The translations under genes were made by a program, and so were the position numbers. Below are positions 12,444-14,146 of a stretch of DNA of 19,309 nucleotides, piece by piece. The notes below the pieces were generated by a model. The model was given only the letters and a program-made list of their open reading frames with translations, had not been told where the DNA came from and did not search any database. Numbering within the stretch: the stretch's first letter is position 1; every line of letters begins with the position of its first letter. Source of the DNA: a virus (Duplodnaviria > Heunggongvirae > Uroviricota > Caudoviricetes); the IMG/VR virus record IMGVR_UViG_2690315742_000008, positions 1 through 19,309 of that record; one strand, 5' to 3'.

Positions 12444-12521
12444 CCATCTACATCACTGAGCTAATAGCAGGGTTATCGTTACTAATGGTTCTTACTGTAT
12501 ATATTATTAAGTATATTCTTT

Positions 12522-13133
12522 ATGCGAATAAAAAAACTAATTGATCACGATGAGCTTCTGTCAACATTATCATATGACTCAGAAACAGGAATATTTAAAT
12601 GGCTAAAAACAAATTCAGTAGTAAGAGTAAAAGGTAGTATTGCTGGAGGTGTTAGTGGTGGTTATATATGCATTAGCATAAATAATGTTTTGTATTATGC
12701 GCATAGACTTGCTTGGTTCTATGTATACAAAAAATGGCCTCCTAAGTTTATTGATCATGTAAATGGGAACAGACTTGACAATAGGATTTCAAATCTAAGA
12801 CTGGCAACAGAAGAGCAGAATGCAAGAAACATTGTAGGGAATAGGTTAAACACATCCGGTGCGATTGGAGTGTCTTGGTATAAGCCAACTGGCAGGTGGA
12901 AGTCTTATGTTGGTTATAAAAATAAGACAATATCGTTAGGGTATTTCGATAGCAAAGAAGATGCAGCATTCATAGCAGCACTAGCAAGAAAGAAACTATA
13001 TGGAACTTATGCGAGTAAAGCACTTAATTGCGAGCATGAGCTTTTATCTCAATTTAATAATGATGAGGATAAACTTGCGGAATATCTTAAGGAAAAATCT
13101 AAAAGGACTCGAAAGCGTGTTAAAAACAGATAA
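12522..13133 (+). CDS. HNH homing endonuclease with AP2-like DNA-binding domain, 203 aa, in AT-rich DNA
   Basis: HNH motif HRLAWFYVY…IDHVNGNRLDNRISNLRLATEEQN and AP2-like GVSWYKPTGRWKSYVGYKNKTISLGYFDSKEDAAFIAALARKKLYG. No SD. Inserted between the helicase and the tR2-like terminator. Confidence 0.75.
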   Translation: MRIKKLIDHDELLSTLSYDSETGIFKWLKTNSVVRVKGSIAGGVSGGYICISINNVLYYAHRLAWFYVYKKWPPKFIDHVNGNRLDNRISNLRLATEEQNARNIVGNRLNTSGAIGVSWYKPTGRWKSYVGYKNKTISLGYFDSKEDAAFIAALARKKLYGTYASKALNCEHELLSQFNNDEDKLAEYLKEKSKRTRKRVKNR

Positions 13134-13165
13134 AGGCCTGCTGGTAATCGCAGGCCTTTTTATTT
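13134..13165 (+). terminator. tR2-like intrinsic terminator: AGGCCTGC-TGGTAATC-GCAGGCCT followed by TTTTTATTT
   Basis: 8-bp perfect stem plus T-run immediately upstream of ninB, as with lambda tR2 (recalled). Confidence 0.7.
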
Positions 13166-13181
13166 GGGGGAGAGGGAAGTC

Positions 13182-13622
13182 ATGAAAAAACTAACCTTTG
13201 AAATTCGATCTCCAGCACATCAGCAAAACGCTATTCACGCAGTACAGCAAATTCTTCCAGACCCAACCAAACCAATCGTAGTAACCATTCAGGAACGCAA
13301 CCGCAGCTTAGACCAGAATCGGAAGCTTTGGGCTTGCCTTGGTGACGTTTCGCGTCAGGTTGAATGGCATGGGCGCTGGCTGGATGCAGAAAGCTGGAAG
13401 TGTGTGTTTACCGCAGCATTAAAGCAGCAGGATGTTGTTCCTAACCTTGCCGGGAATGGCTTTGTGGTAATAGGCCAGTCAACCAGCAGGATGCGTGTAA
13501 GCGAATTTGCGGAGCTATTAGAGCTTATACAGGCATTCGGTACAGAGCGTGGCGTTAAGTGGTCAGACGAAGCGCGACTGGCTCTGGAGTGGAAAGCGCG
13601 ATGGGGAGATCGGGCTGCATGA
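13182..13622 (+). CDS. ninB: NinB (recombination-associated ssDNA-binding protein), 146 aa
   Basis: MKKLTFEIRSPAHQQNAIHAVQQILPDPTKPIVVTIQERNRSLDQNRKLWACLGDVSRQVEWHGRWLDAESWK… matches lambda NinB (recalled). The track start at 13164 is over-extended. Confidence 0.9.
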   Translation: MKKLTFEIRSPAHQQNAIHAVQQILPDPTKPIVVTIQERNRSLDQNRKLWACLGDVSRQVEWHGRWLDAESWKCVFTAALKQQDVVPNLAGNGFVVIGQSTSRMRVSEFAELLELIQAFGTERGVKWSDEARLALEWKARWGDRAA

Positions 13623-14146
13623 CTATCAAATCAAATACGCCAGCGTCAGATAGGTATCGGCTTATTGAGGATTATCTGTATTTAGACGGAGATACAGTCA
13701 GGTACAAAAAGGACTCGCTAAAACACCCCAACCACAGCCACCGGGCCGGAGATGAAATTAAAACATCGATAAATGGATCTGGGTATAGACAGGTGTGTTT
13801 TGCAGGCATTCAGATGTTTGTTCACGTAGTTGTTTTTGCGCTGCACAACAAAAGAATGCCATTGAAAAATATTGACCATATTAACGGAAACAGGCTGGAC
13901 AATTCCCCAAAAAATCTTAGGGAGGCAAGCCGGATAGCAAACAGCCGAAATCAGAAAACTAAGTGCAATAGCCGTTCTGGAATAAAAAATGTTTTATGGA
14001 ACAAGCAAAAAAATAAATGGGCCGTTCAAGTGCGCACAGATTTTGGCCGGTTGCATTTTGGGTTCTATGAAGATCTTGAGCTTGCTGGTTTGGTTGCCAG
14101 TGAGGCTATCAACAAATATCACGGACAATATGCGAGGGTTGAATGA
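13619..14146 (+). CDS. Second, divergent HNH-AP2 homing endonuclease, about 175 aa from ATG 13619 (ATGA overlap with ninB stop)
   Basis: HNH motif IDHINGNRLDNSPKNLREASRIANSRN and AP2-like …WNKQKNKWAVQVRTDFGRLHFGFYEDLELAGLVASEAINKYHG. The track start at 13559 lies inside ninB. Confidence 0.7.
   Translation: MTIKSNTPASDRYRLIEDYLYLDGDTVRYKKDSLKHPNHSHRAGDEIKTSINGSGYRQVCFAGIQMFVHVVVFALHNKRMPLKNIDHINGNRLDNSPKNLREASRIANSRNQKTKCNSRSGIKNVLWNKQKNKWAVQVRTDFGRLHFGFYEDLELAGLVASEAINKYHGQYARVE

What the first reader, a model, noticed from the sequence alone, without database searches (positions are those of the whole stretch)
12444..14146. Two divergent free-standing HNH-AP2 homing endonuclease genes flank ninB
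Genes at 12522..13133 and 13619..14146 both carry an HNH motif (IDHVNGNRLDNRISNLR / IDHINGNRLDNSPKNLR) plus an AP2-like DNA-binding segment, but are otherwise diverged. The first is strikingly AT-rich by eye, has no SD, and is wedged between the helicase stop and the tR2-like terminator. The second is coupled to ninB by an ATGA overlap. Together with the LAGLIDADG intein, this makes three selfish nuclease elements within 4 kb of the replication/nin module. HNH proteins near phage replication or packaging genes sometimes serve the phage, so domestication is possible.
Basis: partly seen in the sequence, partly recalled or inferred. Interest (0 to 1): 0.5.

Follow-up and report, generated by a model that had tools for sequence, protein, structure and literature searches.

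The report
Two homing-endonuclease genes flanking phage ninB
Two intact, distantly related HNH-AP2 homing-endonuclease genes sit at two conserved junctions of a lambda-like prophage that are empty in most relatives; this is an ordinary kind of selfish element, but its insertion junctions and deletion scars are unusually easy to read.

Summary
ORFs 12522-13133 (HNH1) and 13619-14146 (HNH2) both match Pfam HNH_3 and keep the I-HmuI-type catalytic D-H...N...N residues. Both have a C-terminal AP2-like domain, shown by sequence for HNH1 and by a predicted fold for HNH2. They share 33% identity.

Both positions are insertion polymorphisms.
- **HNH1** is identical to phage HK022 gp57. It lies in a 665-bp AT-rich cassette inserted into a conserved 26-codon ORF that contains the lambda tR2-region hairpin. 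That site is empty in lambda itself. About 126 of 5426 complete E. coli genomes carry the cassette.
- **HNH2** replaces 10 bp near the 5' end of the phage dam gene with 537 bp. It takes over dam's start codon and first nine codons, and supplies dam with a substitute 13-codon N-terminus. It precedes about 2% of these dam genes.

Three independent deletion scars, frameshifted or truncated copies, and a different HNH gene (NUMOD4 type) at the same ninB/dam junction point to repeated gain and loss. Domestication is therefore unlikely.

Cleavage and homing are inferred, not shown. This is a new member of a known kind, of moderate interest.

The parts
10653..11669 (+). Context: a 339-residue intein inside the DnaB-type helicase gene (10050-12443). 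It sits in the Walker A loop (GK|T), starts with Ala, and ends with His-Asn followed by Thr.
   Evidence: It is absent from the HK97 and SH2026Stx1 helicases. Boundaries come from alignment to HK97 P. Pfam gives weak LAGLIDADG_3, Hom_end and Hint hits.
12440..12544 (+). Small hydrophobic ORF of 34 codons, [34 protein letters not shown], equal to HK022 gp56. The first 10 codons are the conserved linker ORF. The remainder is a substitute C-terminus encoded by the HNH1 cassette. The ORF overlaps the helicase stop (ATGA) and overlaps the HNH1 start by 23 nt.
   Evidence: Only residues 1-12 match the lambda-type small-ORF family phrog_5907.
12471..13135 (.). HNH1 cassette: 665 bp, 34% G+C, inserted at AATAACAG^GCCTGCTGG of the conserved linker. 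A 3-nt AGG is shared by both junctions, so the edges are 12469-12472 and 13133-13136.
   Evidence: The uninterrupted linker was seen in lambda and in 11 other loci, downstream of DnaB-type, lambda P/ren-type and toprim-type replication genes.
12522..13133 (+). HNH1 gene, 203 residues: an N-terminal beta-rich domain, an HNH_3 nuclease domain (D78, H79, N91, N100), and an AP2-like domain (about 114-161). It is 100% identical to HK022 gp57.
13132..13168 (+). Backbone terminator hairpin with T-run, identical to the lambda sequence between ren and ninB (the tR2 region). It is the 3' remnant of the interrupted small ORF and is not part of the cassette.
   Evidence: The terminator scan finds it. It is identical in lambda. 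The last 40 nt of the query are present in about 1780 E. coli genomes without HNH1.
13182..13622 (+). ninB (orf) recombination mediator, 146 residues.
   Evidence: Pfam NinB, E=1e-54.
13619..14146 (+). HNH2 gene, 175 residues: an N-terminal beta-rich domain, an HNH_3 nuclease domain (D86, H87, N99, N108), and an AP2-fold domain (125-171).
13619..13644 (+). The start codon and first 9 codons of HNH2 (MTIKSNTPA). This 26-nt stretch is identical to the 5' end of HK97-type dam. It is the captured dam start, still overlapping the ninB stop by ATGA.
13645..14181 (.). A 537-bp segment that replaces 10 bp (ACACGACAAG) of the empty HK97-type dam allele. It holds the body of HNH2 plus the substitute dam 5' end.
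14143..14181 (+). Substitute dam 5' end: a GAGGG Shine-Dalgarno sequence just upstream, an ATG, and 13 codons ([13 protein letters not shown]). This is the N-terminus type native to a diverged dam lineage that also carries this endonuclease gene. It stays behind in deletion scars.
14143..14673 (+). Phage N6-adenine methyltransferase (Dam family), 176 residues. This is the target gene of HNH2.
   Evidence: Pfam Dam, E=2e-65. This allele family occurs at 2193 places in 1566 E. coli genomes.

Best explanation
Both genes are free-standing homing endonuclease genes of the I-HmuI-like HNH(HNN)-AP2 class. Each occupies a short sequence that is highly conserved across otherwise mosaic lambdoid phages.

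**HNH1.** It sits inside the 26-codon ORF and terminator linker that separates the replication module from the nin genes. In lambda this is the tR2 region.

**HNH2.** It sits just inside the 5' end of the phage dam gene, at the ninB/dam ATGA overlap.

**Inferred mechanism.**
1. During lytic growth or after induction, the early-right operon expresses the nuclease at a low level.
   - HNH1 has no Shine-Dalgarno sequence. It probably depends on ribosomes translating the overlapping small ORF.
   - HNH2 uses dam's original ribosome site and start codon.
2. The enzyme nicks or cuts the uninterrupted site in a co-infecting or co-resident lambdoid genome.
3. Recombinational repair copies the endonuclease gene, together with adjacent donor sequence, into that site.

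**Self-protection (inferred).** The occupied allele would be protected because the insertion splits the site (HNH1, plus a linked A-to-G change 4 nt upstream) or replaces it (HNH2, with a diverged 39-nt dam 5' end).

**Repair of the interrupted gene.** Each cassette repairs the ORF it interrupts. HNH1 supplies a new hydrophobic C-terminus for the small ORF, and HNH2 supplies a new N-terminus and ribosome site for dam. Operon translation is therefore preserved.

**What is shown and what is inferred.** Shown here: domain content, retained catalytic residues, exact junctions, presence/absence polymorphism, spread across backgrounds, degeneration and loss. Inferred: cleavage, the target sites, and homing itself.
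For: **Family.** HNH_3 scores are above the Pfam threshold. All invariant family columns are kept, and the I-HmuI D74/H75/N96 equivalents are present in both proteins. The HNH2 model matches I-HmuI and AP2 domains.

**HNH1 site.**
- The empty site is identical in lambda and in 11 other loci, behind three different kinds of replication gene.
- The cassette has the same junctions in every occupied locus examined, including HK022 and Stx phages.
- 126 genomes are occupied, against about 2551 linker places.

**HNH2 site.**
- The empty ninB|dam arrangement is common. dam occurs at 2193 places, and HNH2 at no more than 50 places in 42 genomes.
- HNH2 is always directly upstream of dam, while its upstream neighbour varies: two NinB alleles, a 141-residue non-NinB protein, or DUF1367.
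- A 78%-identical homologue sits before a dam that is only 47% identical, and that dam natively starts MIKHKSQTP.
- dN/dS against that homologue is about 0.10.

**Gain and loss cycle.** Three independent deletion scars keep the substitute dam start. Frameshifted and truncated alleles exist. A different HNH gene (NUMOD4 type) occupies the same junction in 77 genomes.

**Independent assortment.** Intein, HNH1 and HNH2 are found in several different combinations.

**Possible recent conversion.** Two co-resident prophages in one strain share the HNH1-ninB-HNH2-dam block at 99.7% identity, against 98.3% for the adjacent replication genes.
Against: - No cleavage, nicking or homing data exist for either protein. 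I found no paper that tests HK022 gp57.
- Because the junctions are identical in all backgrounds, a single ancient insertion followed by ordinary homologous recombination through the conserved flanks could give the same distribution. Lambdoid phages are well known for such exchange.
- Occupancy is low (2-5%). That is unexpected for an efficient drive, unless loss is fast or opportunities for homing are rare.
- The AP2 assignment is below the Pfam threshold for HNH1 and rests on a predicted structure for HNH2.
- I-HmuI-type enzymes nick one strand rather than making double-strand breaks, so the repair route is uncertain.
Confidence: 0.7

Rival explanations
1. Inert passengers. Each gene entered once by illegitimate recombination and now spreads or persists only through ordinary homologous recombination between the conserved flanking sequences of lambdoid phages. 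The nuclease is inactive or irrelevant to its own spread.
For: Junctions are identical in every background. The flanks are classic conserved sequences where lambdoid modules recombine. Occupancy is low. Degenerate alleles exist.
Against: The catalytic residues and full-length ORFs are kept in most copies. dN/dS is about 0.1 between HNH2 and a 78%-identical homologue, whereas the neighbouring dam genes are only 47% identical. So the endonuclease gene has moved between dam lineages while under protein-level selection. A second, unrelated HNH gene targets the same junction.
Confidence: 0.17
2. Domesticated nucleases that serve the phage. They might act in replication or recombination next to the helicase and NinB, or as weapons that cut competing lambdoid genomes (exclusion), so that the phage is selected to keep them.
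For: They are placed among replication and recombination genes. Purifying selection acts on HNH2. Nuclease genes at boundaries of genetic exchange have been proposed to benefit their phage hosts (PMC10448857). The weak PADLOC hits are only to a generic 'homing endonuclease' model.
Against: The genes are absent from most close relatives, including lambda, HK97 and HK544, which grow normally. Frameshifted and truncated alleles and three clean deletion scars exist. The genes are not next to terminase genes, unlike the HK97 gp74-type HNH proteins. There is no NCBIfam functional family hit.
Confidence: 0.1
3. Decaying pseudogenes or annotation artefacts, meaning ORFs that are no longer expressed. 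This would apply mainly to HNH1, which lacks a Shine-Dalgarno sequence.
For: There is no ribosome binding site before HNH1. The cassette has an atypically low G+C content.
Against: All eight sequenced HNH1 copies examined (six distinct variants besides the window's) are free of stops. Differences from the window copy are few, and in four of the five variants that differ, synonymous changes are more frequent per site than non-synonymous ones. HNH1 is 100% identical at the protein level between HK022 and this window. Its start lies inside a translated upstream ORF, which allows translational coupling. HNH2 inherits dam's own start signals.
Confidence: 0.03

Closest known systems
I-HmuI (PDB 1U3E), the intron-encoded HNH homing endonuclease of Bacillus phage SPO1 (Pfam HNH_3)
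   Same: The nuclease motif is the same, with Asp-His, a structural Asn and a metal-binding Asn. I-HmuI is the best PDB structural match to the HNH2 model. An N-terminal beta-rich domain precedes the nuclease domain in both.
   Different: I-HmuI is encoded inside a group I intron and has a C-terminal NUMOD-type helical DNA-binding region. The window genes are free-standing and carry an AP2 domain instead. I-HmuI is a characterised nicking enzyme, whereas these two proteins are untested.
HNH(HNN)-AP2 homing endonuclease family. It was defined by Magnani et al. 2004, as cited in PMC10448857 and PMC2248197. Examples are the Xanthomonas phage Xp10/OP1/Xop411 genes, the ICP1 'IPA-HNH' genes, and T7 gp3.8-like genes.
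   Same: The architecture is the same: an N-terminal HNH(HNN) domain followed by a C-terminal AP2 domain. They are free-standing genes in phage genomes, sporadically distributed, with degenerate copies.
   Different: Most described members are in virulent phages, with no defined target or flanking conservation (PMC2248197). Here the host is a temperate lambdoid prophage. The empty sites, junctions and loss scars can all be read at nucleotide resolution.
HK022 gp57 and gp56, and the 'HNH endonuclease' or 'homing endonuclease' genes annotated after the helicase in Stx phages (1717, PA28, SH2026Stx1, WGPS4/6)
   Same: HNH1 is 100% identical to HK022 gp57 and 98-99.5% identical to the Stx-phage copies. 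The overlapping small ORF and the junctions are the same.
   Different: There is no biological difference, because this is the same element. In the HK022 record it is annotated only as 'hypothetical protein', and I found no functional study.
Free-standing homing endonuclease genes of T4-like phages that split or remodel their target genes (seg and mob genes, intronless homing). This comparison rests on my own knowledge of the literature.
   Same: The endonuclease gene lies between or within conserved genes. Neighbouring donor sequence is copied along with it. The occupied allele is protected by sequence differences at the target.
   Different: The T4 examples are GIY-YIG or HNH-zinc-finger enzymes with demonstrated cleavage. 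Here the element borrows the target gene's start codon in frame and provides a replacement N-terminus. I have not seen that arrangement described for those genes.

Membership tests
Pfam HNH_3 / I-HmuI-like His-Me finger nucleases | Profile score above the curated threshold | tested here: met
   HNH1 scores 57.8 bits and HNH2 scores 42.6 bits, against a gathering score of 24.8.
Pfam HNH_3 / I-HmuI-like His-Me finger nucleases | Catalytic Asp-His pair, structural Asn and metal-binding Asn (I-HmuI D74, H75, N96) | tested here: met
   HNH1 has D78, H79, N91 and N100. HNH2 has D86, H87, N99 and N108. HNH1 was aligned to 1U3E. These are invariant columns in a 49-sequence alignment.
Pfam HNH_3 / I-HmuI-like His-Me finger nucleases | Beta-beta-alpha-metal fold | tested here: met
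   For HNH2 only. The AlphaFold model has pLDDT 91, and its top PDB match is I-HmuI with probability 1.0, though TM is only 0.38 because the domain arrangement differs. HNH1 was not modelled.
Pfam HNH_3 / I-HmuI-like His-Me finger nucleases | Metal-dependent DNA nicking or cleavage | not testable with these tools
   This needs purified protein and substrate DNA.
HNH-AP2 homing endonucleases | AP2 DNA-binding domain C-terminal to the nuclease domain | tested here: met
   HNH1: Pfam AP2 gives E=1.6e-6, but 28.7 bits is below the 33.3 threshold. There are also weak hits to the WRI1 and TEM1 AP2 domains. HNH2: there is no Pfam hit, but the model's residues 125-171 superpose on TEM1 AP2 domains at 1.5-1.8 A with probability 0.97-1.0. 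Many HNH2 homologues carry PF00847. The sequence evidence alone would be inconclusive.
Free-standing homing endonuclease gene (functional class) | Presence/absence polymorphism at one precise site within otherwise near-identical flanks | tested here: met
   HNH1. HNH2.
Free-standing homing endonuclease gene (functional class) | The same element in unrelated genetic backgrounds (horizontal spread) | tested here: met
   HNH1 occurs behind DnaB-type helicases, behind an extra 89-residue gene, and (a 203-residue HNH_3+AP2 gene in L014) behind a toprim primase. HNH2 occurs behind two NinB alleles, a non-NinB protein and DUF1367, and within lambda-P, DnaB and toprim replication modules.
Free-standing homing endonuclease gene (functional class) | Degeneration and loss (the homing cycle) | tested here: met
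   For HNH2, there are three distinct deletion scars and truncated or frameshifted alleles P0002 and P0004-P0006. No such remnants were found for HNH1, and I did not search for them systematically.
Free-standing homing endonuclease gene (functional class) | Cleavage of the empty allele, and super-Mendelian inheritance dependent on the nuclease | not testable with these tools
   This needs cleavage assays and phage crosses.
Phage-serving HNH proteins (HK97 gp74-type terminase cofactors) | Adjacent to terminase or portal genes and conserved in all close relatives | tested here: not met
   Both genes lie in the replication/nin region. They are absent from HK97, HK544 and lambda.

The most novel reading that the evidence does not exclude
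The most novel reading not excluded is that these elements are active drivers of lambdoid mosaicism. Under this reading, endonuclease genes have specialised on the few short sequences conserved across lambdoid phages: the tR2 linker ORF and the ninB/dam overlap. They slot into overlapping-gene junctions in frame. HNH2 captures dam's start codon, and the NUMOD4-type gene captures ninB's last nine codons and stop. Each carries a replacement end for the gene it interrupts. Each cut, followed by co-conversion, would then move neighbouring modules between co-resident prophages. That would give a mechanistic basis for the long-noted 'boundary sequences' of modular exchange.
Probability: 0.3. Interest if true: 0.6.

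Novelty: new member of a known kind. Interest (0 to 1): 0.38.

Why it matters
On its own this is routine. HNH-AP2 homing endonuclease genes are common in phages, and HNH1 is already in GenBank as HK022 gp57.

The value lies in how clearly the system can be read.
- The empty target of HNH1 is present in phage lambda itself, in the tR2 region.
- The empty target of HNH2 is present in HK97.
- Donor phages or prophages (HK022 for HNH1, E. coli lysogens for HNH2) are sequenced.

Homing in temperate lambdoid phages could therefore be tested directly with classical phage crosses.

The junction anatomy shows how such elements can enter tightly coupled operons without polar damage. It involves start-codon capture, a replacement N-terminus for dam, and a mirror-image arrangement of a second endonuclease gene on ninB. 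The three deletion scars document the loss phase of the homing cycle.

If the enzymes are active, they would link homing endonucleases to module exchange among prophages, including Shiga-toxin phages.

Tried and rejected
**Searches that gave nothing**
- Pfam AP2 on HNH2, even at E<=10, gave no hit.
- A sequence search of the PDB with HNH2 gave only a chance hit.
- NCBIfam gave nothing for either protein or for the small ORF.
- PADLOC gave only marginal hits to a generic 'homing endonuclease' model, so a defence-system reading was dropped.

**Ideas tested and dropped**
- I first thought the terminator hairpin might belong to the HNH1 cassette. It does not: the last 40 nt of the query are present in about 1780 genomes without HNH1, and in lambda.
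- I considered that the HK97-type dam N-terminus might itself be a remnant of the endonuclease gene. I rejected this because, by my reading of the sequences printed, it lines up as a normal diverged Dam N-terminus with the MIKHKS type (IK..S.TP....DCW).
- I looked for a complete E. coli genome carrying intein, HNH1 and HNH2 together. There is none. The exact combination was found only in the draft contig JRQB01000030.1.

**Other gaps**
- HNH2 has no relative above 60% identity in the phage genome collection.
- Literature searches found no study of HK022 gp57 or of endonuclease insertions at ninB/dam. The Magnani 2004 paper is not held in the library.
- My first script and my first terminator pattern missed loci and had to be repeated.
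Full report
**What the window is**

The window is the early region of a lambdoid prophage.
- The left arm carries recombination genes, an N-like antiterminator, a two-gene candidate defence pair and a cI-type repressor.
- The right arm runs cII, O, a DnaB-type helicase, the region of interest, Dam, NinE, NinX, NinF, YbcO, RusA, a phosphatase, Q, a holin and an adjacent ORF with no family match.
- The exact helicase protein was found only on draft contig JRQB01000030.1 of assembly GCA_000785775.1, and that contig has the same gene order.

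**Checking the observation**

*Domains and residues*
- ORF 12522-13133 (HNH1, 203 residues) and ORF 13619-14146 (HNH2, 175 residues) carry the quoted motifs.
- Both match Pfam HNH_3 above threshold (E=8e-16 and 4.6e-11) and PHROG 99, 'HNH endonuclease' (7e-72 and 6e-43).
- They are 33% identical over 129 residues, an alignment that runs through the nuclease and C-terminal domains.
- HNH1 aligns to I-HmuI so that D78, H79 and N100 match I-HmuI D74, H75 and N96.
- A 49-sequence family alignment has eight invariant columns (H69, D86, H87, G90, N99, L100, N108 and V125 in HNH2 numbering). Both window proteins keep all of them.

*The AP2 claim*
- For HNH1 it is supported by Pfam AP2 at E=1.6e-6, although that is below the gathering score, and by weak hits to plant AP2 domains.
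- For HNH2, Pfam sees nothing.
- However, an AlphaFold model of HNH2 (pLDDT 91) has I-HmuI as its best PDB match. Its residues 125-171 (three strands and a helix) superpose on TEM1 AP2 domains at 1.5-1.8 A.

*Other stated features*
- The HNH1 region is 34% G+C, against 46% for the window.
- No Shine-Dalgarno sequence precedes HNH1.
- Both ATGA overlaps around HNH2 are real.
- The helicase contains a 339-residue intein in its Walker A loop that inteinless relatives lack.

**The HNH1 site**

*The empty site.* Lambda and eleven other fetched loci have an uninterrupted 77-nt linker directly after their last replication gene. That gene can be a DnaB-type helicase, lambda ren, or a toprim primase. 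The linker reads ATGACCATCTACATCACTGAGCTAATAACAGGCCTGCTGGTAATCGCAGGCCTTTTTATTTGGGGGAGAGGGAAGTCATGA. It encodes a 26-codon hydrophobic [29 protein letters not shown]. Its second half is the terminator hairpin, and in lambda its stop overlaps the ninB start. By position between ren and ninB this is the lambda tR2 region; that assignment is from my own knowledge.

*The occupied site.*
- In the window, 665 bp are inserted at AATAACAG^GCCTGCTGG, with a 3-nt AGG ambiguity.
- The first 74 nt of the insert give the small ORF a new hydrophobic C-terminus, so the ORF now runs 12440-12544.
- The HNH1 start lies 23 nt inside that ORF, and the HNH1 stop abuts the hairpin.
- Only residues 1-12 of the hybrid ORF match the lambda-type small-ORF family.
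- Every occupied locus with this cassette sequence that was examined (six besides the window and its source contig) has the same left junction. The right junction is also the same wherever it was fetched (four of these, plus L014). Together they lie behind three different upstream genes.
- An A-to-G change 4 nt upstream of the junction is present in all occupied loci and in none of the empty loci.

*Distribution.*
- HNH1 is 100% identical to HK022 gp57, and the small ORF is HK022 gp56.
- It is 98-99.5% identical to genes annotated as HNH or homing endonuclease in Stx phages.
- Among 5426 complete E. coli genomes, 126 carry the cassette. The backbone hairpin segment matches about 2551 places in 1780 genomes.

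**The HNH2 site**

*The junctions.*
- In HK97, ninB and dam overlap by ATGA, and dam begins MTIKSNTPAHDKDCW.
- In the window, the first 26 nt after that ATG are unchanged but now head HNH2 (MTIKSNTPA-SDRYRL...).
- The next 10 nt of HK97 are replaced by 537 nt.
- Homology resumes at GACTGCTGG, which encodes DCW.
- The last 39 nt of the replacement encode a new dam start, [13 protein letters not shown], preceded by a GAGGG ribosome site.
- So HNH2 lies inside the 5' end of dam. It uses dam's former translation signals and gives dam new ones.

*Association with dam.*
- The exact HNH2 protein is recorded in 1362 index blocks of public assemblies.
- In the eight fetched loci it is always directly upstream of dam. 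Its upstream neighbour is one of two NinB alleles or an unrelated 141-residue protein.
- A 78%-identical homologue (P0003) sits between a DUF1367 gene and a dam that is only 47% identical overall. That dam natively begins MIKHKSQTPIESRDCW.
- This indicates that the substitute dam start in the window is donor-type dam sequence that travelled with the endonuclease gene. It also indicates that the gene has moved between dam lineages.
- dN/dS between the two endonuclease genes is about 0.10, with synonymous sites near saturation.

*Occupancy.* In complete E. coli genomes this dam family occurs at 2193 places in 1566 genomes. HNH2 occurs at no more than 50 places in 42 genomes, and is full-length in 34 of them.

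**Gain and loss**

Three loci lack HNH2 but keep the substitute dam start together with different amounts of the HNH2 3' end.
- **Strain E2** keeps ATGACTATCAA|CAAATATCACGGACAATATGTGAGGGTTGAATGA. This is an in-frame 14-codon remnant formed across a CTATCAA repeat.
- **FDAARGOS_944** has ninB fused out of frame to the last 26 nt of HNH2.
- **E308** shows a deletion across a GAGGG repeat.

Truncated and frameshifted HNH2 alleles also exist.

A different gene, combining NUMOD4, HNH_3 and an I-HmuI NUMOD-like domain, occupies the same ninB/dam junction in 77 genomes. Its C-terminus (KARWGDQAA) is the NinB tail, and the ninB gene upstream of it has a replaced 3' part. This is the mirror image of the HNH2 arrangement.

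The intein, HNH1 and HNH2 occur in several different combinations. No complete E. coli genome has all three.

In strain Br_190_kylling, two different prophages share the HNH1-ninB-HNH2-dam block at 99.7% identity (8 mismatches in 2664 nt). The adjacent replication genes are 98.3% identical (27 mismatches in 1751 nt), and sequence downstream of the block is unrelated. This fits recent conversion between co-resident prophages but does not prove it.

**Interpretation**

The best reading is two independent free-standing homing endonuclease genes of the HNH(HNN)-AP2 class. That class has been described in phages, cyanobacteria and protists (PMC10448857 and PMC2248197).

- *Shown:* the domains, the retained catalytic residues, the junctions, the polymorphism, the spread across backgrounds, and the degeneration and loss.
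- *Inferred:* site-specific nicking or cutting of the uninterrupted linker and of the dam 5' end; repair-mediated copying; and protection of occupied alleles by disruption or replacement of the site.

The window contains no intact copy of either presumed target.

The main rival reading is passive spread by ordinary recombination through conserved flanks. I cannot exclude it without experiments. It does not explain why an intact nuclease is kept, or why the endonuclease gene is better conserved than its neighbouring dam.

Domestication is unlikely, given the absence from lambda, HK97 and HK544 and the existence of the deletion scars.

**Novelty**

The gene family and even the HNH1 gene itself are already in the databases. 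A survey figure of ninR regions marks HNH genes there (PMC4118853). I found no description of the target sites, the start-codon capture, the deletion scars or the alternative occupant of the junction.

I rate this as a new member of a known kind, of moderate interest. Its main value is as a readily testable homing system in classical lambdoid phages.

Noticed in passing
window 6019-7427, minus strand: Two overlapping low-G+C genes lie between the cI-type repressor and the N-like gene, in the position that rexAB occupies in lambda. They match the PADLOC candidate defence pair: PDC-M63B (310 residues, E=7.5e-45) and PDC-M63A (159 residues, DUF6932, E=1e-41).
   Followed up: partly
window 10653-11669: The helicase intein starts with Ala rather than Cys or Ser. 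It ends in THN followed by Thr, and has ...DNHLW... and ...ECLCIMV... motifs. This resembles the class 3 (Trp-Cys-Thr) inteins known from phage helicases. Some related prophages have it and others lack it, independently of the two HNH genes, and RefSeq annotates the host gene as three pseudogene fragments.
   Followed up: partly
L005 2429-3031 and L008 5197-5799 (E. coli Z1323CEC0019 and O157:H7 ECP19-798): A different endonuclease gene (NUMOD4 + HNH_3 + I-HmuI NUMOD-like, 200 residues) occupies the same ninB/dam junction in 77 complete E. coli genomes, including O157:H7 EC4115. It ends with NinB's last nine residues and its stop codon, and the ninB upstream of it has a replaced 3' part. This mirrors the HNH2 arrangement.
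   Followed up: partly
L011 about 3001-3040, L004 about 2500-2534, L012 about 3000-3015: Three independent deletion scars of HNH2 keep the substitute dam start. One is an in-frame 14-codon mini-ORF (MTINKYHGQYVRVE). One fuses ninB out of frame to the HNH2 tail, giving NinB a ...[10 protein letters not shown] end. One is a clean GAGGG-mediated deletion.
   Followed up: yes
L022 1068-1147 (lambda 40567-40646), and the same linker in L004, L006, L010-L012, L015-L019 and L021: A conserved 25-30-codon hydrophobic ORF ([23 protein letters not shown]...) spans the terminator hairpin between the replication genes and ninB. It overlaps the neighbouring genes at both ends. It is not annotated in the lambda RefSeq record. 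HK97 and the HNH1 cassette each encode a different hydrophobic C-terminus for it, which hints that the peptide itself may matter.
   Followed up: partly
L007 and L025 (E. coli Br_190_kylling, two prophages): Two co-resident prophages share the block from the small ORF through HNH1, ninB, HNH2 and dam at 99.7% identity. The adjacent replication genes are 98.3% identical, and one prophage has an extra 89-residue gene. Sequence downstream of the block is unrelated.
   Followed up: partly
L016 6873-7301 and 12776-13300; L017 4779-5312; L019 6904-7395 and 16586-17083; L025 5733-6299: Related lambdoid and P22-like prophages carry further HNH_3 genes at other gene junctions. These are between cII and O, between ybcO and rusA, next to cI, before the primase, before the small terminase subunit, and between ninF and ninG. 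Endonuclease genes at junctions therefore appear to be a general feature of this phage group.
   Followed up: no
window 15377-15712, plus strand: A 111-residue ORF in a low-G+C stretch (about 37%) lies between ninF and ybcO. It has no Pfam match and hits only PHROG 2638, which has no known function. It may be another inserted gene.
   Followed up: partly
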